Below are positions 1 to 60,838 of a DNA stretch of 64,000 nucleotides, one piece after another. Within the stretch, counting starts at the first letter, position 1. The number at the start of each line of letters is the position of its first letter. The notes under the pieces were generated by a model. That model was not told where the DNA came from. It saw nothing but the letters and a program-made list of their open reading frames with translations, and did no database searches. The position numbers and the translations under genes are program-made. The stretch covers positions 1,696,001 to 1,760,000 of the forward strand of contig NZ_JAQNDL010000001.1 of the NCBI RefSeq assembly GCF_028368995.1, written 5' to 3'. Source of the stretch: Nannocystis bainbridge (GTDB lineage Bacteria > Myxococcota_A > Polyangia > Nannocystales > Nannocystaceae).

Positions 1-1794
1 TTCATGCTGCAGCGGATCGAGCGGCGGCTGTTCACGCCGATGGCGTTCACGGTCAGCACGGCGCTGCTCGGCTCGCTGCTGCTGTGCCTGACGCTGACGC
101 CGGTGCTCGCCAGCTACCTGTTCCGCCGCCGGGTCCGGATCCGCGACAGCCGGGTGATGAAGGCCAGCGCCCGCGCCTACGAGCGGTGGATCGGCCGGCT
201 CGTCCGCCGCGCGCGGCTGGTGGTGATCGTGGCGGCGCTGGCGACGGTGGCGGCGCTGGTGGTCCTCGGGCGCCGCGTCGGCACCGAGTTCCTGCCGCAG
301 CTCGACGAGGGCTCGATCTGGATCCGCTGCAACTTGCCGCCCGGGCTGTCGCTGTTCAAGTCGGCCGAGGTCGCGTCGACGATCCGCGCGCTGGTGCTGC
401 AGTCGCCCGAGGTGCGGCTCGTCAGCTCGCAGACCGGCCGCAACGACTCCGGGACCGACCCGTACGGGCCCAACCGCAACGAGCTCCTGGTCGCGCTGCA
501 ACCTTATGACACATGGCCTAAAGGACAGATCAAGGCCGACCTGGTCGAGGCGCTGGCGGCCCGGCTGCGCGCGGCGATCCCCGGCGCGACGTTCAGCTTC
601 ACCCAGCCGATCCTCGACAACGCGACGGAGGCGGCGACCGGCTCGTCGGCCGACCTGGCGATCATCATCCGCGGCCCGGACCTCGGCGAGCTGCGTCGGC
701 TGGCGGTGCAGAGCCGCGAGGTGGTGGCGGGCATCCCGGGCGCGGCCGACACGGCGATCGAGCAGGAGGCGGGGCAAGAGCAGCTGCGGCTGCGGCTGCG
801 GCGGGCCGACATGGCGCGCCACGGGGTCGACGTCCGCGACGTGCAGCAGCTGGTGAGCCTGGCGATCGGCGGGCGCCCGATCGACACCGTCTACGAGGGC
901 TCGCGGCGGTTCGCGGTGGCGCTGCGGTTCATCCCGGAGGCGCGGGCCAGCGGCGACGCGATCGGCCGCCTGCTGATCACGCCGCACCGCGGGGGCCGGG
1001 TGCCGCTGGCCGAGGTCGCCGACATCGAGGTGGTCGAAGGCGCGACGATCATCGCCCGGCGCGAGAACCACCGCCAAGTCACGGTGCGCACCAACATCCG
1101 CGGGCGCGATCAGGGCAGCTTCGTGGCCGAGGCGCAGGCCAGGCTGCGGGCAGCGCTGCAGCTGCCGCCCGGGTACCAGCTCGAGTGGGGCGGGCAGTTC
1201 GAGAACCTCGAGCGCGCGCGCCGGCGCCTGGTGGTGATCCTGCCGCTGACGCTCGGCATCATCGTGTCGCTGCTGTTCTTCGCGTTCCGCTCGCTGCGCT
1301 GGGCGCTGCTGGTGCTGGCGTGCGTGCCGTTCTCGCTGCTCGGCGGGGTGTTCGCGCTGTGGCTGCGCGGGATCCACCTCAGCGTGTCGGCGGCGGTCGG
1401 GATGGTGTCGCTGTTCGGGGTGGCGGTGATGAGCGGGGTGCTGCTGGTCGAGTCGATCCGCACGGCCGAGGCGGACACGGCCGCGGAGTCGGCGGTGCGC
1501 GGGGCGACCCGGGCGCTACGGCCGCTGCTGCTGATGATCCTGGTGGCGCTGCTCGGGATGGTCCCGGCCGCTCGCGCGACCGGCATCGGCTCGGACGTGC
1601 AGCGCCCGCTGGCGACGGTGGTGGTCGGCGGGCTGCTCTCGACGCTGTTCTTGACGCTGCTGGTGCTGCCGTGTGCGGCCTCGCTGGTCCCGCGGACCAG
1701 GGCGGGGAAGCGGCAGGGTGGTGCATCGGACATGTCCCATGCGACATGTAAAGATGGACATTCCCCGTCGGACATGAGCGCTCCCGGCCCATGA
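1..1794 (+). CDS. CusA/CzcA-family heavy-metal RND efflux permease (5'-truncated by the window edge)
   Basis: Motifs LFTPMAFTV, GTEFLPQLDEGS, WGGQFEN, SVSAAVG..SLFGVAV and GIGSDVQRPLATVVVGGL are typical of HME-RND permeases. The frame is open from base 1, and the C-terminal tail runs through a palindrome array. Confidence 0.93.
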   Translation, partial: FMLQRIERRLFTPMAFTVSTALLGSLLLCLTLTPVLASYLFRRRVRIRDSRVMKASARAYERWIGRLVRRARLVVIVAALATVAALVVLGRRVGTEFLPQLDEGSIWIRCNLPPGLSLFKSAEVASTIRALVLQSPEVRLVSSQTGRNDSGTDPYGPNRNELLVALQPYDTWPKGQIKADLVEALAARLRAAIPGATFSFTQPILDNATEAATGSSADLAIIIRGPDLGELRRLAVQSREVVAGIPGAADTAIEQEAGQEQLRLRLRRADMARHGVDVRDVQQLVSLAIGGRPIDTVYEGSRRFAVALRFIPEARASGDAIGRLLITPHRGGRVPLAEVADIEVVEGATIIARRENHRQVTVRTNIRGRDQGSFVAEAQARLRAALQLPPGYQLEWGGQFENLERARRRLVVILPLTLGIIVSLLFFAFRSLRWALLVLACVPFSLLGGVFALWLRGIHLSVSAAVGMVSLFGVAVMSGVLLVESIRTAEADTAAESAVRGATRALRPLLLMILVALLGMVPAARATGIGSDVQRPLATVVVGGLLSTLFLTLLVLPCAASLVPRTRAGKRQGGASDMSHATCKDGHSPSDMSAPGP

Positions 1795-1830
1795 CATGTC
1801 CTCCACGACATGCCCGGAAAGACACCTTTG
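1728..1830. repeat. 14-bp-phased RRACATGTYY palindrome array
   Basis: CATG-type cores at 1731, 1745, 1759, 1773, then 1795, 1809, 1823. Lies between convergent gene ends. Confidence 0.85.
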
Positions 1831-1834
1831 TTCT

Positions 1835-7561: not shown

Positions 7562-7597
7562 AGACATGTCCCATGGACATGTCTTATGAATCACGGC
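7562..7597. repeat. Short RRACATGTYY array
   Basis: AGACATGTCC and GGACATGTCT with cores at 7565 and 7578, plus a degenerate core at 7592. Confidence 0.7.
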
Positions 7598-9253: not shown

Positions 9254-10606
9254 ATGGTATTCATTCAAGCTCGCAAGCCCACGAATCCGCCGAACGGGCT
9301 CTTCCTTTCGTGCGCCGTGTTGGCCGCTCCTGGTCTCACCCTCGCCGCTCCCGTGCAGGCCGCGGATGGCGAGCCCGGCGCGGTTTCCTGGCTGAGCGCC
9401 GCGGACGACCCCGCCGCCGCAGACCCTTTAAAAAGAATCGTCGACTTCGACGGGGATGGTCGCTCCGACCTCGCGCTGACGGGGCCCAGCGGCTGGCAGA
9501 CCGTGCCGGTCGCCGCGTCCATCGGCGACGGCAACTTCACCGTCACCAACAAGGGCGTGGGCGACTTCGCCGTCTGGGCCGCCACCGGCGCCAGGGTCGT
9601 CCACGGTGATTTCGACCGTGATGGTCGCACCGACATCGTGCTGACCGGCACGAGCGGTTGGAGCACCCTGCCGGTCGCCTTCTCCAGGGGCGGCGGCGCC
9701 TTCGACGTCACCAACCGGACCATCGAGGACTTCGCCGTCTGGGCTGCCACCGGCGCCGAGGTCATCCCGGGCGACTTCAACCGCGACGGTCGCACCGATC
9801 TCGCCCTGACCGGCACGAGCGGCTGGAGCACCCTGCCGGTCGCCTTCTCCAGGGGCGATGGCAGCTTCGACGTCACCAACCGGGCCGTCGGTGACTTCGC
9901 CAGCTGGGCCGCCACCGGCGCCAAGGTCGTCCCGGGTGACTTCAACCGCGACGGCCGCATCGATCTCGCCCTGACCGGCACCCATGATTGGACCACCGTG
10001 CCGATCGCCTTCTCGCGGGGTAATGGCAGGTTCGACATCACCAACCAACTCGTCGGCGACTTTGCAGCCTGGGCCGCCACCGACGCCAGCGTCGTGCCCG
10101 GCGACTTCAACCGCGACGGCCGCACCGACATCGCCCTCGTCGGCGGCACTGGCTGGAGCACCGTGCCCGTCGCCTTCTCCCGCGGCAACGGCACCTTCGA
10201 CATCACCAACAAGCCCATCGGTGATTTCGCCACCTGGGCCGCCACCGGCGCCGAGGTCGTCCCCGGCGACTTCAACGGGGACGGCCGTACCGACATTGCC
10301 CTCACCGGCACGAGCGGCTGGAATACCGTTCCCGTCGCCTACTCGCGCGGCGATGGAACCTTCGAGGTCGCCAATACCGGCGTCGGCGACTTCGCCGCCT
10401 GGGCCGCCACCGGCGCCAGAGTCGTGCCCGGCGACTTCAACGGGGACGGCCGCACCGACATCGCGCTGACCGGCACGAAAGATTGGACCACCCTCCCGAT
10501 CGCCTTCTCGACCGGTGCCGGCTTCAACGTCACCAATCGCCCGATCACCGACTTCGCTACCTGGTCGACCACGCCGGGCGTCGAGGTCATCGGCGCCCTG
10601 CAGTAA
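9254..10606 (+). CDS. Secreted FG-GAP/VCBS-repeat seven-bladed beta-propeller protein
   Basis: Signal peptide followed by seven 55-aa repeats (GDFNxDGRTDIALTG...W.T.PVAFSRG.G.F) with a 165-bp DNA period starting at 9443. Confidence 0.88.
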   Translation: MVFIQARKPTNPPNGLFLSCAVLAAPGLTLAAPVQAADGEPGAVSWLSAADDPAAADPLKRIVDFDGDGRSDLALTGPSGWQTVPVAASIGDGNFTVTNKGVGDFAVWAATGARVVHGDFDRDGRTDIVLTGTSGWSTLPVAFSRGGGAFDVTNRTIEDFAVWAATGAEVIPGDFNRDGRTDLALTGTSGWSTLPVAFSRGDGSFDVTNRAVGDFASWAATGAKVVPGDFNRDGRIDLALTGTHDWTTVPIAFSRGNGRFDITNQLVGDFAAWAATDASVVPGDFNRDGRTDIALVGGTGWSTVPVAFSRGNGTFDITNKPIGDFATWAATGAEVVPGDFNGDGRTDIALTGTSGWNTVPVAYSRGDGTFEVANTGVGDFAAWAATGARVVPGDFNGDGRTDIALTGTKDWTTLPIAFSTGAGFNVTNRPITDFATWSTTPGVEVIGALQ

Positions 10607-11916: not shown

Positions 11917-13164
11917 ATGACCGACGCCCACGACGAGGCCCCACCATTCTTGAGCGGTGAGCAGGCCGCCGCGCTGCTCGGCGTCAAGCGGGCCACCCTC
12001 TACGCCTACGCCAGCCGCGGCCTCGTGCGCAGCGAGCCGGGCGGCCCCGGGCGCGGGCGCCGGTACAGCCGCGACGACCTCGAGCGGCTCAAGGCTCGCA
12101 GCGACGCTCGCTCCGGCCACGCGGCGGTCGCCGCCGGCGCGCTGCGCTGGGGCGAGCCCGTGCTCGAGTCGGCCTTGACCGCCATCGACCCGGCCGGCCC
12201 GCGCTATCGCGGCCGGCCTGCCGTCGACCTCGCGGCCACCTGCTCCTTCGAGGCCGTCGCCGAGCTGTTGTGGACGGGCGGCCTGCCCGAGCGCGCCCCT
12301 CAGTGGTCCGTCTCCGGCCTCGGCCTGCGGCTCGCCTCGCTCGGCGCCCTCCTGCCCGAGGCCGCCGCCCCGCTCGTCACCCTCGCCCTGGCCGTGCCGG
12401 CGCTCGGCGCCGCCGACCCCGATCGCTTCGACGCCACGCCCGGCCCCGAGCTCGTCCGCGCCCGCGCCTTGCTCGTGCGCATGGCGGCGCTCGCCGGCGC
12501 CGGCCAGGGCGACGCCCGGGTCCGACCCGCGCTGGCCGAGCGCGACGTCGCCGGCGCCCTCCTGGTCTCGCTCGGCGCCCCCGCGACCCCGCGCGCCCGC
12601 CAGGCCATGGCCCGCGCGCTGGTGCTCTCGGCCGACCACGAGCTCAACGCCTCGGCCTTCGCCGTGCGCGTCGCCGCCTCCGCCGGCGCCGACCTGTACG
12701 CCTGCGTCAGCGCCGGCCTGGCCACCCTGTCCGGCCCGCGCCACGGCGGCATGGGCGAGCGCGTCGAGGCCCTCGTCACCGAGGTCGGCAAGCCCGAGCG
12801 CGCGCGCGCCGTCGTGCGCGAGCGAGCCCGCCGCGGCGAAGAGGTGCCCGGCTTCGGCCACCCGCTCTACCCCGACGGGGACCCTCGCGCCGCCGCCCTG
12901 CTGGCCGCCGCCCACGAGCACGCCCCGCGCAGCCCGAAGGTCCGCGCCGTCCAGGCCATCGTCGACGCCATGCGCGACGCCGGCCGCGAGCCGGCCAACT
13001 TCGACGTCGGCCTGGTCGCCCTCGGCGCCGCCCTCGGCCTGCCCCCGCGCACCAGCGTCGCCATCTTCGCCGTCGGCCGCGCCGCCGGCTGGCTGGCCCA
13101 CGCCTTCGAGCAGCGCGCCGCCGGCTTCCTCCTGCGCCCCCGCGCCCGCTACGTCGGCCCGTGA
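11917..13164 (+). CDS. Citrate synthase-like protein with an N-terminal excisionase/MerR-type HTH
   Basis: LSGEQAAALLGVKRATLYAYASRGLV HTH, then DHELNASAF, GPRHGG, PGFGHPLY and NFDVG. Confidence 0.9.
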   Translation: MTDAHDEAPPFLSGEQAAALLGVKRATLYAYASRGLVRSEPGGPGRGRRYSRDDLERLKARSDARSGHAAVAAGALRWGEPVLESALTAIDPAGPRYRGRPAVDLAATCSFEAVAELLWTGGLPERAPQWSVSGLGLRLASLGALLPEAAAPLVTLALAVPALGAADPDRFDATPGPELVRARALLVRMAALAGAGQGDARVRPALAERDVAGALLVSLGAPATPRARQAMARALVLSADHELNASAFAVRVAASAGADLYACVSAGLATLSGPRHGGMGERVEALVTEVGKPERARAVVRERARRGEEVPGFGHPLYPDGDPRAAALLAAAHEHAPRSPKVRAVQAIVDAMRDAGREPANFDVGLVALGAALGLPPRTSVAIFAVGRAAGWLAHAFEQRAAGFLLRPRARYVGP

Positions 13165-13261
13165 GCGCGACCTCCGGCTGGCTGGCCCACGCCTTCGCGC
13201 AGCGCGCCGCCGGCTTCCTCCTGCGCCCCCGCGCCCGCTACGTCGGCCCGTGAGCGCGACC
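13085..13261 (+). repeat. Tandem duplication (89-bp period) of the gene's 3' end including its stop codon
   Basis: 13085-13172 and 13174-13261 are identical apart from one substitution (ttcgAgcag versus ttcgCgcag). Confidence 0.92.
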
Positions 13262-13263
13262 GC

Positions 13264-13371
13264 CAGCACGCTCGAAATAACATGCCCACAGGGACATGTT
13301 CTATATGACATGTCCATAATGACATCACCCAAGAGACATGTCCTCCATGACATGTCCCATCGAACATCCAA
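13264..13371. repeat. 14-bp-phased RRACATGTYY palindrome array (8 units)
   Basis: Cores at 13267, 13281, 13295, 13309, 13323, 13337, 13351 and 13365. Confidence 0.92.
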
Positions 13372-15654: not shown

Positions 15655-15717
15655 AGACCTATCCCGAAGTACATGTCCGTGGGGGCAGGTTAAAAACCTG
15701 TCCCTGCGGACATATAC
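15655..15717. repeat. Degenerate RRACATGTYY array
   Basis: Cores at 15658, 15672, 15686, then 15697 and 15711. Lies between convergent genes. Confidence 0.6.
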
Positions 15718-15718: not shown

Positions 15719-16018
15719 CTATCGCGGCACCCACAAATAGTACGACAGCGGCCCCAGCGTCACCGCGATCACCGCGGCGAGGAAGAGGTGGAACACGCCG
15801 ACCACCACCGCGGCGGTCCCCTCGACCTCGCCGTGGAGCAGCCGCCCGGCCGCGCCGCGGCCGAAGATCACCGTGCGGCGCAGGGTCAGCCCGCGCACGC
15901 CCGAGCGGATCAGCAGGACCACGCCGGTCACCAGCAGCACCGGCATCATCAGCCGCAAGAACGCCACCGGGCGCAGCTGCTCGGCCGCGCCGGCGAAGGC
16001 CCGCAGATATCCGTCCAT
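15719..16018 (-). CDS. Small two-TM membrane protein
   Basis: Two hydrophobic helices, GC3-rich codons and TAGAGT 6 nt upstream of the ATG. Confidence 0.65.
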   Translation of the reverse strand: MDGYLRAFAGAAEQLRPVAFLRLMMPVLLVTGVVLLIRSGVRGLTLRRTVIFGRGAAGRLLHGEVEGTAAVVVGVFHLFLAAVIAVTLGPLSYYLWVPR

Positions 16019-16175: not shown

Positions 16176-19103
16176 ATGACCGGCGAGGACGACAGCCTGC
16201 GCGCGACCCTCGTCGCCGCCGATCACCAGGCCGCGACCCTCGACTCGGGCCAGGTCGAGCGCCACGCGCCGCCGGGCGCGGGCACGCCGGTCGACAAGGA
16301 GATCGTCAAGCGGGCGCTGTTCCCCCGCCGCGGCGGGCCGGTGCGCATCGGTCGCTTCACCGTCCTGGGCCAGGTCGGCCGCGGGGCCATGGGCGTGGTC
16401 TACGCCTGCTACGACGACCTGCTCGACCGCAAGGTCGCGGTCAAGCTGCTCAAGCACGCCGCCGCCGGCGACTCGACCGCGGCCCAGGTCCGGCTGCTGC
16501 GCGAGGCCCAGGCGCTGGCCCGGCTCGACCACCCCAACGTGGTCAAGGTCCTCGACGTCGGCACCTTCGAAGATCGCGTCTACCTGGCCATGGAGTTCGT
16601 CGACGGCCAGACCCTCGCCGCCTGGCTGGCCGCCGCGCCGCGCACGTGGCGGGACATCCTCACGGTCGTGCTCGCGGCCGGCGAGGGCCTCGCCGCCGCC
16701 CACGCCAAGGGCCTGGTCCACCGCGACATCAAGCCCGACAACATCATGGTCGGCGGCGACGGGCGCGTGCGCCTGATGGACTTCGGGCTCGCGCGCGCCG
16801 AGGCCGGCGCCGCGCCCGACGAGCTCGCCGGCCCGGTCGCCTCGCTGTCGGTCACCCGCACCGGCGCGATCATGGGCACCCCGGCCTTCATGGCCCCCGA
16901 GCAATTCCTGGGCGAGGCGATCGACGCCCGCTCCGATCAGTTCGCCCTGTGCGCCACCGCCTGGGAGGCGCTCTACCAGCAGCGGCCGTTCGCCGGCGAG
17001 ACCCTGGCGACGCTGATGGCCAGCGTCACCGCCGGCGCCCTGACCCCGCCGCCGCGCGCGAGGGCGCCGCTGTGGCTGCGGCGGGTGCTGGAGCGCGGGC
17101 TCTCGCGCGCGCGCACGGCCCGCTACCCCGACACCCGGGCCCTGCTGCAGGCCCTGCGCGCCGACCCGACCCGCCGTCGGCGCGCGCTCGCGGCCGTCGC
17201 CGGCGCGCTCGCGCTCGCCTCCGCCGGCTTCGGCGCGGCCACCGTCGCCGAGCAGCGCACGATCGCCGGCTGCGAGGCCGCCGGCGCGGCCGTGTTCGCC
17301 GACTGGGGCCCCGGCGCGCGCGAGGCCCTCGCCGCGGCCTTCGTCGCCACCGGGGCCGACCACGCCGCCGCCACCTTCGAGCGCACCACGCCCTGGCTCG
17401 ATCGCTGGGCCGACGCCTGGCGCGACACCGCCGACGCCGCCTGCCGCGCCCACCGGCTCGAGAGCACCTGGGACGGCGAGCAGTACGGCCGCGCCGTCGA
17501 CTGCCTGGCCGAGGCCCGCAGCAACTTCGCCGCCCTCGTGCGCGAGCTCGGGCGCGCCGACGCGGCCAGCCTCACCGAGGCCACCGCCGCCGCCGCCGCG
17601 CTCGCCGGTCCCGAGCTGTGCGCCGACCCGGTTCACCTGCGCGAGCGGCCGATGCTGCGCTTCGACCAGCGCGACCAGGTCCTCGGCGTGCGCGACCAAC
17701 TCGCGCGCGCCGGCTCGCTCGCCGCCGCCGCCCGCTACGCCGAGGGCCTGCCGGTCGCGCGCGAGGCCCTGCACGCGGCCGCGGCGATCGGCTGGCCGGC
17801 GCTGATCGCCCAGGCCGAGCTGCGCGCCGCGGGCCTGGCCGAAGAGACAGGAGCTTACCCCGCCGCCGAGGCCGGCCTGCTGCGCGCCCTCGCGGCCGCG
17901 CGTGCGGCCCGATCGGCCCGTCTGGCCCTGCAGGCCAGCACCGAGCTGATCTACCTGGTCGGCTACCGCGGCTCGCGGCTGGCCGAGGCCAAGGTGTGGG
18001 CCGAGTCGGCGCGGACCCAGCTGGCCCTGCTCGCCGGCGCCCACCCGCTCGAGGAGGCCGGCATCGAGAGCAACCTCGCCGGCGTCCTCTACGTCGGCGG
18101 CGAGCATGCCGAGTCGGCGCGCCTGTACGCCCGCGTGCTCGCGGCCCGCGAGGCGGCTCTCGGCCCCGACCACCCGCGCGTCGCCGACAGCATCAACAAC
18201 CTCGCCAGCCTGCGCTACGTCGCCGGCGCCGTCGGCGACGCCTCGCGCCTCTACCACCGCTCGCTGGCGATCTACGAGCAGGTCCTGGGCGAGCACCACC
18301 CGCAGGTCGCGACCACCCTCAACAACCTCTCGCTGGTCCACGAGGCCACCGGCGCCTACGACCAGGCGATCGCCGCGCTGGCCCGGGCCCTGGCGATCCG
18401 CGAGGCCACCTTCGGCCGCGAGCACTCCCTGGTCGCCACCTCGCTGTGCAACCTGGCGCTCGTGTACGAGGCCACCGGCGCCTACGACGAGGCCACGCGG
18501 CTGTTCGGGCGCGCCCTGGCGATCCAGGAGAAGACCTTCGGCCCCGACCACCCGGTCGTCGCCGACACCCTGCACAACCTCGCCACCGTCCGCTACGACA
18601 CCCGCGACGACGCCGAGGCCACGCGCCTGTTGCAGCGCGCCCGCGCGATCTACGAGCGCACGCTCGGCCCGGACCACCCCTCGACGATCTCGAGCGTGGT
18701 CGGCCTCGGCCTCATCCTCAACGCCACCGGCGCCCACGCGGAGGCGCTCGAGCTGCTCGCCCGCGCCCTGCCCCGCCAGGAGCAAGCCCTGGGCCCCGAC
18801 CACCCCGCCGTGGCCCACACCCTGCTCGGCCGCGGCGAGGCGCTGACCGACCTGGGCCGCCCCGCCGAGGCCGTGCCCGAGCTCGAGCGGGCCCTGGCGA
18901 TCCGCAGCGCCACCGAGGTCCAGCCCGAGGAGCTCGCCGAGGCCCGCTTCGCCCTCGCACGCGCCCTTTGGAGCAGCGGCGCCGACCGCCCCCGCGCCCG
19001 CGCCCTGGCCGAACAAGCCGAGGCCCCCCTGGCCGCCGCCACCGGCCAGGGCGCGACCCACGCCCGCCTCCGCGAGTGGCTGGCCGCCCACCCGGCGCCT
19101 TGA
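16176..19103 (+). CDS. Ser/Thr protein kinase with TM segment and kinesin-light-chain-type TPR repeats
   Basis: GRGAMGVVY, HRDIKPDN, DFG and GTPAFMAPE motifs, then repeated LGPDHPxVAxxLNNLA. Confidence 0.94.
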   Translation: MTGEDDSLRATLVAADHQAATLDSGQVERHAPPGAGTPVDKEIVKRALFPRRGGPVRIGRFTVLGQVGRGAMGVVYACYDDLLDRKVAVKLLKHAAAGDSTAAQVRLLREAQALARLDHPNVVKVLDVGTFEDRVYLAMEFVDGQTLAAWLAAAPRTWRDILTVVLAAGEGLAAAHAKGLVHRDIKPDNIMVGGDGRVRLMDFGLARAEAGAAPDELAGPVASLSVTRTGAIMGTPAFMAPEQFLGEAIDARSDQFALCATAWEALYQQRPFAGETLATLMASVTAGALTPPPRARAPLWLRRVLERGLSRARTARYPDTRALLQALRADPTRRRRALAAVAGALALASAGFGAATVAEQRTIAGCEAAGAAVFADWGPGAREALAAAFVATGADHAAATFERTTPWLDRWADAWRDTADAACRAHRLESTWDGEQYGRAVDCLAEARSNFAALVRELGRADAASLTEATAAAAALAGPELCADPVHLRERPMLRFDQRDQVLGVRDQLARAGSLAAAARYAEGLPVAREALHAAAAIGWPALIAQAELRAAGLAEETGAYPAAEAGLLRALAAARAARSARLALQASTELIYLVGYRGSRLAEAKVWAESARTQLALLAGAHPLEEAGIESNLAGVLYVGGEHAESARLYARVLAAREAALGPDHPRVADSINNLASLRYVAGAVGDASRLYHRSLAIYEQVLGEHHPQVATTLNNLSLVHEATGAYDQAIAALARALAIREATFGREHSLVATSLCNLALVYEATGAYDEATRLFGRALAIQEKTFGPDHPVVADTLHNLATVRYDTRDDAEATRLLQRARAIYERTLGPDHPSTISSVVGLGLILNATGAHAEALELLARALPRQEQALGPDHPAVAHTLLGRGEALTDLGRPAEAVPELERALAIRSATEVQPEELAEARFALARALWSSGADRPRARALAEQAEAPLAAATGQGATHARLREWLAAHPAP

Positions 19104-19115: not shown

Positions 19116-19221
19116 TCGCGTGTCGTCGAGGACATGTCCATAAGAACATGTCCTTCACGACATTTTCTTTTGGACATTCCCTCAAAGACATCTCCATTCG
19201 AGCACGTCCTAAAGATCACTC
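19116..19221. repeat. 14-bp-phased RRACATGTYY palindrome array (7-8 units)
   Basis: Cores at 19119, 19133, 19147, 19161, 19175, 19189, 19203 and weakly 19217, starting just after the kinase stop. Confidence 0.9.
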
Positions 19222-19524: not shown

Positions 19525-20658
19525 ATGGCCCCCCGCCACTGCCTCGCCCTCCTGCTCCTCCTCGGCCCCGCCTGCGGCGACGACGGCCCCGAGCTGACCG
19601 GCGCCGTCGATCCCAGCGCCACCGGCACGCCCTCGACCACGCCCGGCCCCTCGACCACGCCCGGCGGCACCACCGACGACGACCCCACCGAGGGCACGGA
19701 CAGCGACGGTGAGCCCACGACCGGCCCCGGCACCACCGACGAAGGCACCACCGGCGAGCCCGGCACCGGCGAGGCCACCACCAGCAGCGAGACCGGCGAG
19801 CCGGCCGCGACCGCCCCGCTCGTCGCCTACCTCACCCGCAACGCCGCCGGCCAGACCCACCCCGAGGACGTGCCCGAGGAGGCCGACCTCTGCCCCGCCG
19901 GCTGGACCCACCTCGGCGGCTCGAGCTTCAGCGCCGTGTGCCTGCTCGACGCGCCCGGCACCATCGTCAACGTCACCCGCAACGCCGCCGGCCAGTTCTA
20001 TCCCGAGGACGTGCCCGAGGAGGCCGACCTCTGCCCCGCCGGCTGGACCTACCTCGGCGGCACCGGCTTCAACGCCGTCTGCATGACCGACCAGCGGCTC
20101 ACCGTCGCCTATCTCACCCGCAACGCCGCCGGCCAGTTCTACCCCGAAGACGTGCCCGAGGAGGCCGACCTCTGTCCCGCCGGCTGGGACTACCTCGGCG
20201 GCTCCGGCTTCGCCGCCGCCTGCAGCACCGCCGAGGCGCGCTCGATCGTCAACGTCACCCGCAACGTTGACGGCCAGTTCTACCCGGAGGACGTGCCCGA
20301 GGAGGCCGACCTCTGCCCCGCCGGCTGGGACCACCTCGGCGGCACCGGCTTCAACGCCGTGTGCGCCGGCGACGAGGGCCTCGCCCTCGCCTACCTCACC
20401 CGCGACGCCGAGGGCCAGACCTACCCCGAAGACGTGGCCGAGGAGGCCCAGATCTGCCCCGCCGGCTGGGACTACCGCGGCGGCTCCGGCTTCGCCGCCG
20501 CCTGCTCGCAGGCCAGCGCGTCGGCGATCGCCAACCTCACCCGCAACGCGGCCGGCCAGACCTACCCCGAGGACGTGGCCCAGGAGGCCCAGATCTGCCC
20601 CGCCGGCTGGACCCACCTCGGCGGCAGCAGCTTCGCCGCCGTCTGCCAGCAGCCCTGA
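19525..20658 (+). CDS. Lipoprotein with six 47-aa Cys-pair repeats
   Basis: GGAG RBS, lipobox GPAC, Thr-rich linker, then 6 x (LTRNAAGQxYPEDVPEEADLCPAGWxxLGGxxFxAxC) with a 141-bp period. Confidence 0.85.
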   Translation: MAPRHCLALLLLLGPACGDDGPELTGAVDPSATGTPSTTPGPSTTPGGTTDDDPTEGTDSDGEPTTGPGTTDEGTTGEPGTGEATTSSETGEPAATAPLVAYLTRNAAGQTHPEDVPEEADLCPAGWTHLGGSSFSAVCLLDAPGTIVNVTRNAAGQFYPEDVPEEADLCPAGWTYLGGTGFNAVCMTDQRLTVAYLTRNAAGQFYPEDVPEEADLCPAGWDYLGGSGFAAACSTAEARSIVNVTRNVDGQFYPEDVPEEADLCPAGWDHLGGTGFNAVCAGDEGLALAYLTRDAEGQTYPEDVAEEAQICPAGWDYRGGSGFAAACSQASASAIANLTRNAAGQTYPEDVAQEAQICPAGWTHLGGSSFAAVCQQP

Positions 20659-20662: not shown

Positions 20663-20743
20663 TCGCGTGCGCCTTCGGACATGCTCGAAAAAGCATGTCC
20701 GAAAGCACATTGTCCCGAAGACATGTCTTTTCAGGCATGTCCT
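20663..20743. repeat. 14-bp-phased RRACATGTYY palindrome array (6 units)
   Basis: Cores at 20666, 20680, 20694, 20708, 20722 and 20736. Confidence 0.9.
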
Positions 20744-21357: not shown

Positions 21358-22533
21358 ATGAACGAACTGCTGCTCATCGACCTCACCGCCTGGATCGGCG
21401 AGAAGCTCTTACTGCTCGTGCTGGGGCTGGGGCTGCTCACCATGTTGGTGATGCCGGCGATGCGGCTGTCGGCGCTGGCGGTCGGCACGGCGCGCTGGCT
21501 GGCGCTGGCCGTGCCGCGGCTGCTGCGGCGCCGCGCCCTCGCCGGCGAGCCGTCGCGGCCGCTGCAGCTCGGCGGCCTCTCGGGCCCGCTCGCGCGGCTG
21601 ATCCGCCAGACCCGCACCCTCGCGCTCGAGCTGCGCCGCTCGAGCGACGCCGCCGTCGACTGGCCCGTCGAGCCGGCCCAGCCCGATCCGCCGCGCAGCG
21701 GCTGGCGCGAGCTGCTGCTCGGGGTCGCCGACGCCAACGCCCCGCTCACGGCGATCCGCGGCGACGTATTCGCCTGGATCGGCACGGTCGAGGCCATGTC
21801 GGCCAGCGATCGCCAGCTGCTGGTCGGGCTCGGCGTCGAAGTCGAAGCGGTCCGCCGCGCGCTGACCGACGAGGGCGCGCCGGTCGAGATCGTGCGGGCC
21901 CTCGCCGGCCTGCTGTGGAGCATCGACGAGCGGCTCGCCACCGTCGGCGCGTTCGGCTATCGCGGCACCAGCGTCGTCCAGGCCGCGCTGCCGGGCACGA
22001 GCGCGCGGGCGCTGACGACCGGCGGCGACGAGGACGAAACCCGGGCCCGCCGCGGGCGCTGGGCCGGGACGGTGGCCGAGCACGGCCCCGGGCTGTCGCA
22101 GATGGCCGCCAGCTACTCGCGCGGCGCGGCCGACCGCGCCGACCTCGAGCAGGACATCGCCCTCGCGCTGTGGCGCGCGCTGCCGCTGTTCCGCGGCGAG
22201 TCGTCGCTCAAGACTTTTGCTTATCGGGTCGCCCGCTACTGTTGTTTCCGCCACGTCCGCCGGCGCAAGGACTTCGACGCGAGCGTCGACCCGGCCAGCG
22301 TCGCCGACCCGGCCGCCAGCATCGAGTCGGCGATGCTGCGCGCCGACCAGCGCGCCCGCATCGAGCAGGCATTGACCGACCTGCCCGACAACCTCGAGTC
22401 GGTGATGACGCTGCACCTCTCCGGCCAGTCGTACGCGCAGATCGCCGAGACCCTCGGCATCACCGAGCGCAACGTCTCGGTCCGCCTGTCCCGCGCCCGC
22501 GCCCGCCTGCGCCGCCAGCTCGTCGCCGCCTGA
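21358..22533 (+). CDS. ECF (sigma-70 group 4) sigma factor with a long N-terminal membrane-anchored extension
   Basis: C-terminal region 2 (DLEQDIALALWRALPLFRGESSLKTFAYRVA) and region 4 (SYAQIAETLGITERNVSVRLSRAR). The N-terminus carries a hydrophobic helix. Confidence 0.85.
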   Translation: MNELLLIDLTAWIGEKLLLLVLGLGLLTMLVMPAMRLSALAVGTARWLALAVPRLLRRRALAGEPSRPLQLGGLSGPLARLIRQTRTLALELRRSSDAAVDWPVEPAQPDPPRSGWRELLLGVADANAPLTAIRGDVFAWIGTVEAMSASDRQLLVGLGVEVEAVRRALTDEGAPVEIVRALAGLLWSIDERLATVGAFGYRGTSVVQAALPGTSARALTTGGDEDETRARRGRWAGTVAEHGPGLSQMAASYSRGAADRADLEQDIALALWRALPLFRGESSLKTFAYRVARYCCFRHVRRRKDFDASVDPASVADPAASIESAMLRADQRARIEQALTDLPDNLESVMTLHLSGQSYAQIAETLGITERNVSVRLSRARARLRRQLVAA

Positions 22534-22534
22534 G

Positions 22535-22676
22535 CGCGAGCGCTGCGTCGCCCGCTCGGCGCAGCGCTGCGTCACCTGCTCGGCGCGCTGCACGAGCGCA
22601 GCGCAGCGTCACCCGCTCGTCGCCGCCCGAGCGCGGCCCGGCGCAGCGCCGCCCGCTCGTCGCCGCCCGAGCGCGA
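22535..22676. repeat. REP-like GC-rich palindromic repeats between convergent genes
   Basis: Repeated GCGCAGCGCTGCGTC-CCCGCTCG units and CCGCTCGTCGCCGCCCGAGCGCG x2. Confidence 0.5.
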
Positions 22677-26852: not shown

Positions 26853-27018
26853 GCCCGGTGAGCGCCGTCAGCCAGCCCCGAGGATCGCGCCGGCCGACGC
26901 CGTGTGAACGCACGCGGCACGCCGTGAACCGGTTTGCCGCGCGGCCTACATGGAAATCCCGCCCGCGACCCGCGAGGGGCGGCGCTCGGCGCTCACCCAC
27001 GACTGATTCTGCTCTCAT

Positions 27019-27071
27019 GGACATGTCCATGAGAGCATGTACTTTTAAACATGTTTAATACGACATGTCCT
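27019..27071. repeat. 14-bp-phased RRACATGTYY palindrome array (4 units)
   Basis: Cores at 27022, 27036, 27050 and 27064, including GGACATGTCC and AAACATGTTT. Confidence 0.9.
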
Positions 27072-30144: not shown

Positions 30145-30222
30145 TCGCATGCCCTCTCGGACATGTCCCTCACGACATTTTCAAAAGGACATGTCCTCAT
30201 GAACATGTCCATCCGACCATAA
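30145..30222. repeat. 14-bp-phased RRACATGTYY palindrome array (6 units)
   Basis: Cores at 30148, 30162, 30176, 30190, 30204 and 30218. Confidence 0.9.
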
Positions 30223-36403: not shown

Positions 36404-36620
36404 GAACATAAACCATCGGACATGTTCTCATCAACATGTCCTCATGGCCATCCGTCGAGGCCATGCTCGCTCTGCGACGGACCGCCTCGGGCACATGTCC
36501 CCACGAACATGTGTTGAAGCACAACATCGAGGTCGTGCTGATGCCCTCATGAGGTCGCCCTGCACGGCGAAGGACCACGAAAATACATGTCCTCGGGGAC
36601 ATGTCTCATCGAGCATACAA
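36404..36620. repeat. RRACATGTYY arrays (three phased blocks)
   Basis: Cores at 36407, 36421, 36435, 36449; 36494, 36508; and 36586, 36600, 36614. Confidence 0.88.
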
Positions 36621-38705: not shown

Positions 38706-38796
38706 CCACATGCTCGCAAGGACATGTGGATTCACCGACCGCGCGTACCCGGTGCCCGACCGGCGTCGCAAGGACATGTTCTAAAGGACATGTCTC
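38706..38796. repeat. RRACATGTYY arrays (two pairs)
   Basis: Cores at 38709, 38723 and 38775, 38789. Confidence 0.8.
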
Positions 38797-38927
38797 ATCC
38801 GTGCCCGGATCCCCGCGCGCCGCGGCCTACCCACGCCCACCTGCGCCGGTTACCTCGTCGTCCCGCGACCCCCCGCGCCCCATGCCCCTGCGCCGACCCT
38901 GGTCCGCCGATTCGCGCGATTCGTTCG

Positions 38928-38979
38928 CATCATGACTTTTTGGACATGTCTAATACAACATGTCCATAAGAACACGTCG
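38928..38979. repeat. 14-bp-phased RRACATGTYY array (4 units)
   Basis: Cores at 38931, 38945, 38959 and 38973, ending next to the GlxA-family stop codon. Confidence 0.88.
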
Positions 38980-45924: not shown

Positions 45925-45962
45925 ATTTATGTCCCCCGGGACATGTCCGATCGGTCATCCAC
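45925..45962. repeat. Short RRACATGTYY array
   Basis: Cores at 45928 (TATG), 45942 (GGACATGTCC) and 45956. Confidence 0.7.
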
Positions 45963-47440: not shown

Positions 47441-47863
47441 ATGGCGTCGAGCTCGAGCGGGACCATGCGGCTGACGCGAGAGGGGGACATCGTCCATCTC
47501 CAGATCTGCGGCCCGCTCGACCTCGGCCGGGCCACGCAGATGCTCGAGCTCGTGGGCCAGGTCCAGCGCGAGACGGGCCGGGCCTACCTGCTCGCCGACC
47601 TGACCCAGCTCGAAGGCATCCCGGCCGATGCGCGGCGCGCCATCGGCGAGTGGAGCAAGACGAATATCGCCACCGCCGCCGCGCTGTACGGGGCCAACTT
47701 CGCCGCGCGCACGTTGACGAGCCTGCTGTACCAGGCGGTGCGGATAGTCGGCAACAAGCAGTTCGAGCTGGAGTTCGCCCGCGACGAGGCCGCGGGGCGC
47801 CGCTGGCTCGACGCCCATCGCGCCAGCCACGGCGGCGAAGGTCCACGAGGCGAGCCTGCCTGA
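47441..47863 (+). CDS. STAS/SEC14 (SpoIIAA-like) domain protein
   Basis: YLLADLTQL...ADARRAI...YGANFAAR...FARDEAAGRRWLD, a pattern common in myxobacteria. Confidence 0.8.
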   Translation: MASSSSGTMRLTREGDIVHLQICGPLDLGRATQMLELVGQVQRETGRAYLLADLTQLEGIPADARRAIGEWSKTNIATAAALYGANFAARTLTSLLYQAVRIVGNKQFELEFARDEAAGRRWLDAHRASHGGEGPRGEPA

Positions 47864-47991: not shown

Positions 47992-48016
47992 CAATATGTC
48001 TCTTGGGACATGTTCG
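47992..48016. repeat. RRACATGTYY pair
   Basis: Cores at 47995 and 48009, 14 bp apart. Confidence 0.6.
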
Positions 48017-48595
48017 TATGTGCTTCGGCGATTGAGGGGCATGCGCGCCGGCGTCGGCGTGCCCGCACATGAGAAGGCGTGGCGGCCGGCTCGCCTCGCT
48101 CGATGCTCGCGCGCTTGCGAGGACGCGGGTCGCCGCGCTCGCCTCGCGCGCTGTCATCACTCCAGCGCGCTGGTTCCGAGTCGCTCGCCCGCATCGTCAC
48201 ACGACCGACCTGGACCGTCCGAGTTTGTGATGAGCGGGACCCCCGCAGATCGGCCGACTCGCGTCAGTGTCCACGGCGCCGACTGGCACGATCTCGACTC
48301 ACCCCGGCAGCCTGCATCGGGCGGTGGATGTGGCATCGCGCTCGCGTACACTCGCCCGTGCTTCGCGTCTGCCGCGGTCCTGCTCGCTCGCGCGCGACAT
48401 GGTTCCATGGGCCCGTCTTGTGGTCGTGAAACCTCGCGCGGACTGGTGCGACATTTGTCCGATCAGGACCTCACGAGAGGCGTCGAGGAGCCGGTCATGC
48501 GAGGACCGAATGCACGCCTGCCGCACACCCTGACGTTTCGCCGTGACGAAGCTGCTTTCGGCTGGCGTCGCCTTTGTGGTATCTTTACGCAGTTC

Positions 48596-52565: not shown

Positions 52566-52566
52566 G

Positions 52567-58689: not shown

Positions 58690-58870
58690 TTCGCAATGAT
58701 CAGATCAAGAGGACGTCAGGAGAACGCTACAGGGCATCAAGATCCCGTAAAGAACGACGTTAACTGCGAACTATGCGCGGTTTTTCTTCGACTTTGACCG
58801 ACTGTGACCGACTGTCGACGATTTTCGTCTAACTAACAAAGCTATCGAGGCTCGTTAATTTCGAGTTTGC
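58690..58870 (-). promoter_or_regulatory. AT-rich upstream control region of the sigma gene with TGACCGACTG x2
   Basis: Clearly lower GC than the flanks, with a tandem 10-bp repeat at 58795-58814. Confidence 0.45.
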
Positions 58871-59314: not shown

Positions 59315-60214
59315 TTATGGCCACTCGCGCGCGCTGTCGGGCGGCAAGACGTTGGTGAACACGCTGGCGCGCAGGTCGGCGATGCGCGCGGCGGACGGCC
59401 GGCCGCCGGTGCGCGTGGCGACCATCGAGCGGCGAAACAGGCAGCCGTCGGCGCCGAACAGGAGCGAGCCGTCGTGGTCCCAGTCGGCCCAGTCGAGCTG
59501 GCCCAGCGCCTCGGACGACCGCTCGATTGCGCCGCTGCGCTCGACCAGGCGATAGCTGCAGACGCTGCCCGGACCGTTGACCTCGAACATGCCGAGCCAG
59601 CTGCGCTCGAGGGTCAAGCGCCGATGCACCGGGTTTTGCTTCTCGAAGGTCCACGGCTCGGCGAACACGACGCGCATCGTCGAATCCGGGCCGGGCACGC
59701 CGTCGACGCCGCGATTTGTCAGCGTCCAGCCCTGCGACGACTCGGGGGTGTTCGCGCCGCGCCGTGCGCGATACTCCGTGATGTGACCGATCTCGAAGTC
59801 GGGCGGGACCGTGCTGTGGTCATGGAGCTCGGTGATCACCCGGCCATAGTTGAGGATCAGCCTGCGGTTGCCTTCAAAAAAACCGCCGCCGCCCCAGGTG
59901 CTGCCGTCGGGCCACAGGGCCAGCGCGGTGAAGTACGGCGGGCGGCTGACGGCCGTGAAGGTCGCTATCTTGGTCTTGAACTTGCCCGCGAAGTAGACGA
60001 CCAGCCGGCCGTCGGGCGAGATGCCGCAGCGCTCGTCGTAGATGCGACCCGAGAGCCACTGGCCCGGCGTGACCACGTCGCGCGCGAGGTCCCAGCGCAG
60101 CATCTGCACCTGCTTGCTCGGCCCGCGACGAAATACCACCGCCGTGCGCGCGGCGCCGGCGACCAGCGCGAAGGTCCGCGCGCTCGCCCGCGTCTGCTTG
60201 CTGCGTTCGGCCAT
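59315..60214 (-). CDS. Hypothetical protein, beta-propeller-like
   Basis: AVVFRRGPS...W...GQWL.GRIY...SPDG and WADWD..G.LLF motifs, with GC3-rich codons. Confidence 0.75.
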   Translation of the reverse strand: MAERSKQTRASARTFALVAGAARTAVVFRRGPSKQVQMLRWDLARDVVTPGQWLSGRIYDERCGISPDGRLVVYFAGKFKTKIATFTAVSRPPYFTALALWPDGSTWGGGGFFEGNRRLILNYGRVITELHDHSTVPPDFEIGHITEYRARRGANTPESSQGWTLTNRGVDGVPGPDSTMRVVFAEPWTFEKQNPVHRRLTLERSWLGMFEVNGPGSVCSYRLVERSGAIERSSEALGQLDWADWDHDGSLLFGADGCLFRRSMVATRTGGRPSAARIADLRASVFTNVLPPDSAREWP

Positions 60215-60727
60215 CGCGGGCGAGCGTACTGCGAATGCCCCGGCTTCGGGGTCTCACTCGTCGCGGCTGCGGCGTCTCGACCATCGTGGGCCGGCGGCGG
60301 ATGTCGAGTCGGCGGCCGTCGCCGCGGGGCTCGTCGACTTCGGTGACAGCGCGCACGGATGCATGGGCCCGCACCAACATGACCGGAACCATCACGCCGA
60401 ATTGGAAGACGAGGTCGAACTCAATGAAGACGATGGCTGCGTCAACGAGGCGTTCCCGGGCGCGCTGAACGTTGTGGACGAGTCGGAGTCTTGCGGCCGC
60501 GGATGAGGGCGTGGGTGCCATCAGCGTCGTCCTGATTGGATGGCCGTGTCCGCTGCTGCTCGAAGGGGCGGCCGCGCCTCCAGCTCTCACGCGCCGAGGG
60601 GCCCTCCTCACGCTCGCGGGCCCGCGTCGCGCTCCCCCCCCTCGCTCACCGGCGGCCGATCCGGACGAGATCCCCGCGGCGGCGCCATGCCGGTCGTACG
60701 CGGCGCGCGTCTCGCTCCGCGACGGCA

Positions 60728-60838
60728 CGACATGTCTCTTCGGACAGTTTTATATCTCCACAAGAACATGACGGCGCTCTCGACTCGCGGCACGGCGCGG
60801 CTGCTCGTCGCACTTCGGCATGTCTCTCGGGACAGATC
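60728..60838. repeat. Degenerate RRACATGTYY pairs
   Basis: 14-bp pairs at 60731/60745, 60753/60767 and 60819/60833. Confidence 0.6.

What the first reader, a model, noticed from the sequence alone, without database searches (positions are those of the whole stretch)
1728..60838. Dispersed intergenic arrays of a 10-bp palindrome (RRACATGTYY) on a 14-bp period
Seen in sequence: about 14 loci (near 1731, 7565, 13267, 15658, 19119, 20666, 27022, 30148, 36407, 38709, 38931, 45928, 47995 and 60731) carry 2-8 copies of GGACATGTCC-like palindromes separated by variable 4-bp spacers. In the long arrays the phase is exact (13267 to 13365 in steps of 14, likewise 19119-19203, 20666-20736 and 30148-30218). 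Spacers and outer bases differ between units, so these are not simple microsatellite expansions: the core and spacing are what is kept. The arrays are AT-rich islands, nearly all intergenic and mostly just after a stop codon, and they flank functionally unrelated genes, which argues against an ordinary regulon. Inference: 14 bp is about 1.33 helical turns and three units (42 bp) make four turns, so a dimeric protein would coat the DNA in a three-fold spiral. This suggests a chromosome-wide nucleoid-organising, insulator or roadblock system. Alternatives are clustered CATG/ACATGT methylation sites or RNA hairpin arrays, since any unit can pair with any other. I know of no described bacterial repeat family with this structure.
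Basis: partly seen in the sequence, partly recalled or inferred. Interest (0 to 1): 0.9.

Follow-up and report, generated by a model that had tools for sequence, protein, structure and literature searches.

The report
Tiled palindrome arrays after Nannocystis genes
A soil myxobacterium carries thousands of copies of one short mirror-image DNA word, often tiled head to tail every 14 bases just after genes and also hidden inside genes, which looks like an undescribed genome-wide signal probably read by an unknown protein.

Summary
RRACATGTYY occurs 21 times in the window against 0.17 expected. Genome-wide, core distances peak at 14, 28, 42, 56 and 70 bp.

The basic unit is not the 10-bp palindrome. 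It is a 14-bp interrupted palindrome, TGYCC-N4-GGRCA: 2828 copies against 93 or fewer at any other spacing. The "palindrome" is the junction of two abutting modules.

About 8300 units lie in about 3500 loci. They occupy 49% of convergent, 21% of tandem and 11% of divergent spacers.

Isolated modules also sit inside real genes, about 14 times more often than synonymous-codon shuffling predicts.

The module is abundant in the four Nannocystis genomes counted, weaker in two sister genera and near background in the other 14 genera sampled.

I found no RAYT transposase, enclosed enzyme gene, U-tract, Rfam match or paper.

Best reading (0.45): a double-stranded site read by a symmetric dimeric protein, tiled at transcription-unit ends. 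RNA-hairpin (REP-like) and uptake-signal-like readings remain open. Function is untested.

The parts
1728..1815 (.). Array between convergent ORFs. Good units start at 1728, 1770, 1792 and 1806; decayed in-phase units at 1742 and 1756.
7562..7584 (.). Two units 13 bp apart, 15 bp after the stop at 7547.
13278..13371 (.). Longest array in the window. In-phase units at 13278, 13292, 13306, 13320 (degenerate), 13334 and 13348, and a decayed one at 13362. It follows an 89-bp tandem duplication of the 3' end of the upstream gene. It is absent after the orthologous gene in three relatives.
15655..15712 (.). A unit at 15669 and two TGYCC-N4-GGRCA modules (15674, 15699), lying between the stop at 15627 (+) and the stop at 15719 (-). 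The 15699 module is followed on the minus strand by a T run.
19130..19195 (.). Five in-phase units (two good, three decayed), 27 bp after the stop at 19103. An array follows the orthologous gene in all four relatives compared, with different unit numbers and spacers.
20677..20742 (.). Five in-phase positions (20677, 20691, 20705 decayed, 20719, 20733), 19 bp after the stop at 20658. Arrays also follow the ortholog in both relatives that have it in the fetched stretch.
27019..27070 (.). Four in-phase units (27019, 27033, 27047, 27061), 66 bp after the stop (27136) of a minus-strand gene. 27010-27037 is a 28-base hairpin-forming palindrome (12-bp stem, 4-nt loop) centred on one unit.
30145..30210 (.). 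Five in-phase positions (30145, 30159, 30173 decayed, 30187, 30201) in a tandem spacer between minus-strand genes.
36418..36606 (.). Three doublets in one spacer (36418/36432, 36491/36505, 36583/36597). The last lies 66 bp after the stop at 36672 of a minus-strand gene.
38720..38979 (.). A single unit at 38720, a doublet at 38772/38786 and a triplet at 38942/38956/38970. The triplet ends within about 10 bp of the stop (38986) of a minus-strand gene.
45930..45948 (.). One module (45930) overlapping one unit (45939), between convergent genes with stops at 45884 and 45999.
47992..48046 (.). A doublet (47992 decayed, 48006) and a further unit at 48037, about 140 bp after the stop at 47863.
60728..60737 (.). 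A further single unit lies at 63651-63660.

Best explanation
The element is a hyper-abundant, clade-specific DNA word: the 14-bp interrupted palindrome TGYCC-N4-GGRCA, with weak extensions M and K on either side. I propose it is read as double-stranded DNA by a symmetric (dimeric), sequence-specific protein that has not been identified.

Single sites are kept throughout the chromosome, even at synonymous positions inside genes. In Nannocystis the sites have multiplied, partly by local tandem duplication, into head-to-tail tilings of up to about 7 modules. These accumulate where they are tolerated or useful: just after stop codons and between convergent genes.

Shown: anatomy, numbers, positions, distribution among genera, enrichment in coding DNA, and the absence of an associated transposase. 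Inferred: the protein, cooperative coating of arrays, and any role at the ends of transcription units such as boundary, roadblock, topology or nucleoid anchoring.
For: 1. Spacing is strict. TGYCC-N4-GGRCA occurs 2828 times, against 23-93 for N0-N3 and N5-N11. The everted N4 arrangement occurs 38 times and the reversed control 21 times.

2. Array ends keep only the half-unit next to the spacer (T .60, G .76, C .59, C .59; the outer half is at background; n=1126 ends). The dyad across the spacer is therefore the constrained unit.

3. The module is enriched in coding DNA against codon usage.
- 284 in 2632 confident CDS pieces, against 18.6 +/- 5.0 after synonymous shuffling.
- 127 against 9.3 +/- 3.7 for strictly isolated modules.
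- Controls N1, N7 and everted N4 are at or below expectation.
- 8 of 10 random module-bearing ORFs have Pfam domains, and in 4 the module lies inside the domain match.
- Modules in a purA-like gene and an S13 peptidase gene are present in all 5 relatives and use rare A/T-ending codons.

4. Coding modules show symmetric degenerate flanks (A/C on the left, G/T on the right) with no covariation: Watson-Crick 0.466 against 0.464 expected. This fits two independently read half-sites, not a stem.

5. The spacer centre avoids RY steps and does so symmetrically on both strands: CG 594, TC 395, GA 312, against GC 74, TA 42, AC 36, GT 21.

6. Spacer composition, flanks and A/T runs are mirror-symmetric relative to the direction of transcription.

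7. The sequence itself is conserved across genera. Counts against the reversed control are 2828/21, 2586/34, 661/20 and 410/10 in Nannocystis, 246-297/27-47 in genus g2 and 144-384/7-32 in g4. The other 14 genera sampled are near control. The 16-mer gives 323/2 and 112/1 in G060 and G011.

8. No mobilising enzyme was found.
- Y1_Tnp: 0 of 11 genomes of the genus.
- 160 array-gene-array cases enclose unrelated genes. The largest cluster has 5 members; the 2 sampled are glutathione transferases.
Against: No protein was identified. Of 20 genes beside divergent-spacer sites, 3 are regulators (1 ArsR-type, 2 TetR). The ArsR-type one does not follow the motif's distribution among genera.

The arrays fold very well as RNA: z from -3.3 to -6.5 in 7 of 8 window arrays.

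Intergenic modules show flank covariation: pair (-1,14) is Watson-Crick in 0.647 against 0.525 expected, with further pairs significant. Doublets show inter-unit covariation at z about 5. A mixture of array-interior and isolated sites could produce this without base pairing.

On the sense strand, G-U-compatible variants exceed A-C variants at one stem position (169 against 96; units 757 against 509). A purely double-stranded reading does not predict this.

Adjacent 16-bp sites overlap by 2 bp, so full occupancy of an array by bulky dimers may be sterically impossible.

My gene calls are crude (GC3 ORFs with over-extended starts), so the percentages by spacer type are approximate.
Confidence: 0.45

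Rival explanations
1. REP/BIME-like structured repeat that acts as nucleic-acid hairpins. Neighbouring half-units pair in the mRNA 3' end (or in single-stranded DNA) to protect transcripts from exonucleases or to stop transcription in both directions between convergent genes. The family spreads by slippage and an unknown copying mechanism.
For: - The position matches REP/BIME: hits per kb are 3.27 in convergent, 1.18 in tandem, 0.45 in divergent and 0.17 in genic DNA. Several hundred of 1816 arrays begin within 30 bp after a stop.
- Predicted RNA folds reach z -3.3 to -6.5 in 7 of 8 arrays, some with complementarity beyond the units.
- Intergenic flank covariation and doublet covariation are present.
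- Inverted spacers are in excess at offsets 1 and 2: 43 against 24, and 42 against 13.
- G-U-type pairs exceed A-C-type pairs on the sense strand at L3-R3 (169 against 96) and L4-R2 (153 against 113).
- Arrays are kept after the same orthologous genes while their sequence turns over.
Against: - There is no U-tract: 52 of 868 arrays have a T-rich run downstream, against 51 of 868 in the mirror control.
- Loops and flanks are mirror-symmetric with respect to transcription.
- A stem does not need one fixed sequence, yet CATG is 86-92% conserved in unbiased internal units and the same word is kept in three genera.
- Isolated 5-bp-stem modules are enriched about 14-fold inside genes, with no flank covariation and no 3' bias within genes.
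- No RAYT was found in 11 genomes, there is no enclosed enzyme gene, and there is no Rfam match in the window.
Confidence: 0.25
2. An uptake-signal-like or HIP1-like drive. The word is favoured by a process linked to DNA uptake, recombination or repair, so it accumulates wherever it is tolerated, mostly after stop codons and in permissive codons. Arrays are by-products of slippage.
For: - Density is about one unit per 1.3 kb: 8342 units in 11.05 Mb.
- There is a clade-specific 'dialect'.
- The word occurs inside genes with a strong codon-phase bias: phase 0 holds 27 of 322.
- There is no transposase, and spread along the contigs is even.
- Passages of PMC2397512 say that neisserial DUSs often form close inverted repeats acting as terminators, that most are intergenic, that many lie just after the stop codon, and that they are spaced about 1.1-1.5 kb.
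- The abstract of PMC5861425 reports HIP1 as 15- to 300-fold over-represented and conserved within and between ORFs.
- ComEC and DprA homologs are present. This is only permissive, since each also rings in 10 of 14 control genomes.
Against: - Half-sites alone are not enriched in coding DNA: TGYCC 5319 against 4024, and GGRCA 6972 against 9146. Only the N4 pair is enriched. By contrast, a single DUS suffices, and pairs were defined in that paper by a separation of up to 21 nt.
- Phased arrays of up to 7 units are not reported in the DUS passages or the HIP1 abstract that I read.
- The C5 methylase and Vsr search that I ran as a HIP1-style test found nothing in G000 or G005.
- Competence of Nannocystis is unknown to me.
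- Sister genera hold only about 150-380 copies per 7-12 Mb, which is sparse for an uptake tag.
Confidence: 0.2
3. Strong type II topoisomerase (gyrase) sites, analogous to E. coli BIME-2, placed where positive supercoils collect behind transcription units. The 4-bp spacer would be the staggered cut.
For: - The layout is a 5-4-5 dyad around a 4-bp centre.
- Arrays are enriched downstream of genes and between convergent genes.
- Passages of PMC6379681 report a symmetric gyrase motif around a 4-bp stagger, enrichment downstream of transcribed operons, and over-representation in BIME-2.
Against: - Fluoroquinolone-mapped sites prefer GxxC overhangs (79% in S. pneumoniae, consensus gGatCc; passages of PMC12630141). 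Here G at spacer position 1 and C at position 4 are each only about 0.2-0.3, and the flanks are C...G, not g...c.
- Known gyrase motifs are degenerate over about 130 bp with a 10-11 bp periodicity, not a sharp 14-bp word.
- Enrichment inside genes is not explained.
Confidence: 0.05

Closest known systems
HIP1 (Highly Iterated Palindrome 1, GCGATCGC) of cyanobacteria
   Same: A short palindromic word, hugely over-represented, clade-specific and found both inside and between genes. It appears to be kept by selection, has no transposase and has no agreed function (abstract of PMC5861425; listing and abstract of PMC4390886).
   Different: The word here is interrupted (5-4-5) and mainly intergenic after stop codons. 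It is tiled into phased arrays of up to about 7 modules. No C5 methylase or Vsr was found in G000, whereas HIP1 has two cognate orphan methylases.
DNA uptake sequences (DUS of Neisseriaceae, USS of Pasteurellaceae)
   Same: Density is about one per kb, with clade 'dialects'. Most copies are intergenic and often just after the stop codon, with inverted pairs that can fold. The word also occurs inside genes (passages of PMC2397512; listing of PMC3630211).
   Different: A single non-palindromic DUS suffices, and DUS pairs were defined there by a separation of up to 21 nt. Here only the exact N4 dyad is enriched and half-sites alone are not. Phased arrays are not reported in the DUS passages I read. 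Uptake bias is untested.
REP / BIME elements of enterobacteria and pseudomonads, with their RAYT transposases
   Same: Extragenic palindromic repeats present in hundreds to thousands of copies and avoided in divergent promoter spacers. They cluster in tandem (BIME-2) and can form hairpins. BIME-2 is bound and cut by gyrase (passages of PMC6379681).
   Different: No RAYT (Y1_Tnp) was found in 11 genomes of the genus. The unit is 14 bp rather than 20-40 nt (REP length recalled). The word is enriched inside genes. The exact tiling shares 10-bp junctions, instead of alternating REP orientations with linkers (recalled).
Tandem operator arrays of ribbon-helix-helix repressors (MetJ metboxes, omega heptads, ParR/parC).
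   Same: Short symmetric or repeated boxes tiled without gaps at a fixed period, bound cooperatively by dimers that spiral around the DNA.
   Different: Those are a few sites at promoters or centromeres. Here there are thousands of loci at gene 3' ends and inside genes, and no protein is known.

Membership tests
REP/BIME with RAYT | A Y1/HUH transposase gene (RAYT, Pfam Y1_Tnp) in the genome, flanked by the repeats | tested here: not met
   PF01797 gave 0 matches in G000 and in 0 of 11 genomes of the genus. The control rings in 6 of 14 known genomes.
REP/BIME with RAYT | Extragenic, absent from coding DNA, excluded from divergent promoters | tested here: inconclusive
   Promoter avoidance is met: 11% of divergent spacers against 49% of convergent spacers. 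Isolated modules are nevertheless enriched about 14-fold inside genes.
Repeat arms enclosing a small nuclease gene (lead from earlier notes of this scan) | Full-length copies whose two arms enclose one recurrent small gene | tested here: not met
   160 array-gene-array cases were examined. The largest protein cluster has 5 members; the 2 sampled are glutathione transferases. One member each of the next two clusters is a secreted repeat protein and a kinase.
Intrinsic (Rho-independent) terminators | Hairpin followed by a U-tract on the transcribed strand | tested here: not met
   52 of 868 oriented arrays have 5 or more T in an 8-nt window downstream, against 51 of 868 in the mirror control. 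Hairpin potential itself is met.
DNA uptake sequences (DUS/USS) | Hyper-abundant clade-specific word, about one per kb, in genes and after stop codons | tested here: met
   8342 units in 11.05 Mb; distribution among genera; coding enrichment.
DNA uptake sequences (DUS/USS) | A single copy of the word is the functional and enriched unit | tested here: not met
   Half-sites alone are 1.3-fold and 0.76-fold of expectation in coding DNA, while the N4 dyad is 15-fold. Other spacings give 93 or fewer against 2828.
DNA uptake sequences (DUS/USS) | Preferential uptake of DNA carrying the word by competent cells | not testable with these tools
   Only ComEC and DprA homologs could be shown.
HIP1-type iterated palindromes | Palindrome over-represented 15-fold or more and conserved within and between ORFs | tested here: inconclusive
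   Over-representation is met: 135-fold over the reversed word and 15-fold over synonymous shuffles. Conservation was checked in only 2 genes, with the module present in 6 of 6 genomes for each.
HIP1-type iterated palindromes | Cognate orphan DNA methyltransferases | tested here: inconclusive
   No PF00145 or PF03852 match in G000 or G005. N6/N4 methylases were not searched.
Any Rfam RNA family | Match at the gathering score | tested here: not met
   0 matches in the 64-kb window against 4227 families.

The most novel reading that the evidence does not exclude
Nannocystis and its nearest genera have a dedicated dimeric DNA-binding protein whose 14-bp sites are written across the whole chromosome. 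In Nannocystis, tiled arrays of these sites mark the ends of about half of all convergent gene pairs. This would be a sequence-programmed, protein-based boundary system (roadblock termination, insulation or supercoil barrier) unlike any bacterial termination or nucleoid system so far described.
Probability: 0.2. Interest if true: 0.85.

Novelty: new variant of a known kind. Interest (0 to 1): 0.7.

Why it matters
Hyper-abundant short words such as HIP1, uptake sequences and REPs are among the least understood features of bacterial chromosomes. This case is unusually informative for four reasons.
- The word has a sharp dyad structure that points to a dimeric reader.
- It is selected even at synonymous sites.
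- There is a natural gradient among genera: none, a few hundred single sites, or thousands of sites with arrays.
- Its arrays sit at the ends of transcription units in a genome where canonical U-tract terminators do not accompany them.

The motif also matters in practice. It will seed false terminator, sRNA and repeat predictions in Nannocystis genomes, and it may affect cloning and heterologous expression of their natural-product gene clusters.

Tried and rejected
- **p53-like reader.** GGACATGTCC is the textbook p53 half-site, and all 20 listed papers of the 47 that hold the string are eukaryotic work, with no bacterial study among them. No P53 domain was found in G000. I treat the identity as coincidence.
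- **RAYT.** Not found.
- **Enclosed enzyme gene.** None found.
- **Vsr and C5 methylase.** Not found in G000 or G005.
- **Regulator next to promoter-located sites.** 36 divergent spacers hold a 16-mer site. Of 20 flanking genes scanned, 1 is ArsR-type and 2 are TetR. The ArsR-type protein has paralogs in most genera and no close ortholog in g2 or g4, so I dropped it.
- **Analogous module with another sequence in another genus.** None stood out in 200 kb of G024. The 41 kb of G022 is too little to judge.
- **RNA evidence.** No RNA holder was listed, so transcript ends could not be examined and read laying was not used.
- **Earlier notes on this genome.** None exist.
- **Codon-level comparison in motif-free genera.** The S13 peptidase alignment failed. 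The region is a variable loop, and two ORFs were picked in the wrong frame.
- **purA-like protein in other genera.** Not found with this query in the 5 genomes searched.
- **Gyrase-site similarity.** The published overhang preference GxxC does not fit.
- **PadR (ATGT-N8-ACAT) and LacI-type (TG...CG...CA) operator resemblances.** Recalled only and not tested.
- **Supplementary files.** I did not open the supplements of any cited paper. The gyrase logos are in figures that I could not see.

Full report
**Context**

The window is G000:C1:1696001-1760000 of an 11.05-Mb, five-contig genome with 71.5% G+C. A citrate-synthase-like protein of the window is 90% and 88% identical to proteins of two Nannocystis records. 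The organism is therefore a Nannocystis, a myxobacterium of the family Nannocystaceae.

- RRACATGTYY occurs 21 times in the window, against 0.17 expected.
- Tandem Repeats Finder reports 14-bp periods at 13293-13357, 19131-19163 and 30148-30178.
- Genome-wide, distances between ACATGT cores give 557 pairs at 14 bp, 172 at 28, 141 at 42, 69 at 56 and 30 at 70. Other distances up to 35 bp give 0-6 pairs.
- Chaining in-phase units gives 8342 units in 4158 arrays and 3529 loci, about 100 kb of DNA.
- Array sizes are 1: 2026, 2: 1221, 3: 327, 4: 235, 5: 194, 6: 114, 7: 35, 8 or more: 6. The collapse above seven units is unexplained.
- Density is roughly even along all contigs.

**What the unit really is**

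An unbiased logo came from 90 units sandwiched between two perfect units. CATG is 86-92% conserved, the flanks G-G-R and Y-C-C are 62-81% conserved, and the 4-bp spacer is nearly free.

Three results move the symmetry centre from CATG to the spacer.
- The inverted repeat TGYCC-N4-GGRCA occurs 2828 times. The abutted palindrome GGRCA-TGYCC occurs 1771 times, and every other spacing N0-N11 occurs 23-93 times.
- At 1126 array ends, the position outside the last good unit keeps only the half next to the array (T .60, G .76, C .59, C .59). The outer half is at background.
- Only the N4 dyad is strongly enriched in coding DNA and in other genera (see below).

The arrays are therefore head-to-tail tilings of a 14-bp module that starts with TG and ends with CA. 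The period is the module length.

The window's own arrays are A/T-richer variants. Only 9 strict modules but 71 loosely defined units occur in it.

**Where the arrays lie**

I had no annotation. I called 7090 ORFs by length and GC3, with over-extended starts, so the figures below are approximate.
- Strict hits occupy 561 of 1153 convergent spacers (49%), 508 of 2444 tandem spacers (21%) and 92 of 838 divergent spacers (11%).
- Hits per kb are 3.27, 1.18 and 0.45 respectively, and 0.17 inside genes.
- Several hundred of 1816 arrays with 2 or more units begin within 30 bp after a stop codon.
- In the window, nearly all multi-unit arrays follow a stop codon or lie between convergent genes.

**Modules inside genes**

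- In 2632 non-overlapped ORF pieces (GC3 above 0.9, first fifth removed, 3.1 Mb) the module occurs 284 times, against 18.6 +/- 5.0 after shuffling synonymous codons within each gene.
- The 10-bp unit occurs 156 times against 37.4 +/- 5.6.
- The N1, N7 and everted controls are at or below expectation.
- Counting only isolated modules with in-frame GC3 support on both sides gives 127 against 9.3 +/- 3.7.
- Of 10 randomly drawn module-bearing ORFs, 8 have Pfam domains. In 4 of them the module lies inside the domain match: S13 peptidase, adenylosuccinate synthetase, HhH-GPD and GH15.
- Codon phase is biased: phase 0 holds 27 of 322.
- In the purA-like and S13 genes each of the five relatives also has exactly one module. 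In the correctly oriented alignments it is identical, including rare A/T-ending codons, while neighbouring codons vary.
- Modules show no 3' bias within genes.

**Distribution among relatives**

- The strict doublet pattern is found in 9 of 10 other genomes of the genus and in none of 30 genomes of other genera.
- The single module gives a finer picture. Counts against the reversed control are:
  - 2828/21, 2586/34, 661/20 and 410/10 in four Nannocystis genomes;
  - 246-297/27-47 in four genomes of genus g2;
  - 144-384/7-32 in four genomes of genus g4;
  - near control in 29 genomes of the other 14 genera.
- The 16-mer MTGYCC-N4-GGRCAK gives 323/2 in G060 and 112/1 in G011. Some G060 sites lie just after stop codons.
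- The word therefore predates Nannocystis, and the arrays are an expansion within that genus.

**Dynamics**

- After the ortholog of the gene ending at 19103, all four relatives compared carry an array about 25-35 bp after the stop, but with different unit numbers and spacers.
- After the gene ending at 20658, both relatives that have the ortholog in the fetched stretch carry arrays.
- After the gene ending at 13164, only G000 has an array. It lies next to an 89-bp duplication of the gene end.
- After the gene ending at 22533, G005 and G007 have arrays and G000 has none.
- Identical spacers are about four times as frequent as expected at offsets of 1-4 units (96 against 24 at offset 1). Inverted spacers are 1.8-fold and 3.3-fold as frequent as expected at offsets 1 and 2.
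- The largest loci are higher-order tandem duplications.
- Arrays thus grow by local duplication and turn over quickly, while tending to stay at the same gene ends.

**Double-stranded site or hairpin?**

For hairpins:
- RNA folds reach z -3.3 to -6.5 in 7 of 8 window arrays.
- Doublets show inter-unit covariation at z about 5.
- Intergenic modules show flank covariation, 0.647 against 0.525.
- On the sense strand, G-U-type pairs exceed A-C-type pairs at one stem position: 169 against 96, and units 757 against 509.

For a double-stranded, symmetric reading:
- Coding modules show no flank covariation, 0.466 against 0.464, while keeping symmetric degenerate flanks.
- The spacer centre avoids RY steps symmetrically.
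- Spacer composition, flanks and A/T runs are mirror images with respect to transcription, and there is no U-tract: 52 against 51 of 868.
- The sequence itself is conserved across genera, not merely complementarity.
- Covariation within larger arrays is weak.
- Intra-unit palindromy at positions 3/8 is lower than expected: 0.425 against 0.477.
- The intergenic covariation can arise from mixing array-interior and isolated sites.

I weigh this as moderately favouring recognition of duplex DNA by a dimeric protein.

**What it is not**

- It is not REP/RAYT.
- It does not consist of arms around an enzyme gene.
- It is not a canonical terminator.
- It matches no Rfam family in the window.
- I found no link to a C5 methylase or Vsr.
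- It is not read by a p53-like domain.
- Library searches for the 10-mer, for Nannocystis with palindromic repeats, and for myxobacteria with REP found no description. Subscription journals and supplements are not covered.

**Comparison with known kinds**

The element shares over-representation, clade specificity and presence inside genes with HIP1 (abstract) and with uptake sequences (passages). It shares its position and clustering with REP/BIME (passages).

It differs from all three in its strict 5-4-5 dyad, in the gap-free 14-bp tiling, and in combining arrays at gene ends with selected single sites in codons.

**Verdict**

This is a real, abundant and apparently undescribed repeat system. 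The most likely mechanism is a duplex site for an unidentified symmetric protein (0.45). The rivals are RNA or ssDNA hairpins (0.25), an uptake- or recombination-type drive (0.2) and gyrase sites (0.05). No function was tested.

Noticed in passing
window 13078-13264: An 89-bp tandem duplication (2.1 copies, 95% identical) of the 3' end of the citrate-synthase-like gene, stop codon included, lies directly before the 13278 array. Three relatives have a single copy and no array.
   Followed up: partly
G000:C3:552674-552938: Twelve head-to-tail copies of GAGCATGTCC plus TCG. This is a 13-bp-period microsatellite built from the same unit and is the largest locus in the genome (20 units).
   Followed up: no
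window 9442-10510, 18295-18680, 19817-20651, 27782-28162: Long in-frame tandem repeats inside genes, with periods of 165, 126, 141 and 126 bp. They look like repeat-domain proteins unrelated to the finding.
   Followed up: no
window 15699-15712 (minus strand): A single module TGTCC-GCAG-GGACA right after the stop of the minus-strand ORF 15719-16018, followed by GGTTTTT. It is one of the few copies that looks like a classical terminator.
   Followed up: partly
window 22521-22674 and 62084-62289: GC-rich tandem repeats (periods 24-40 and 60-63 bp) in spacers. At 22533 they occupy the position where G005 and G007 carry module arrays.
   Followed up: partly
G060:C1:95234-95333 (loci L153, L155, L157): In a genome of sister genus g4, the same 16-mer site recurs three times at a 42-bp (3 x 14) period inside a longer tandem repeat.
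   Followed up: no
genome-wide: Array length distribution has a shoulder at 3-6 units and a sharp cut-off above 7 units (about 100 bp).
   Followed up: no
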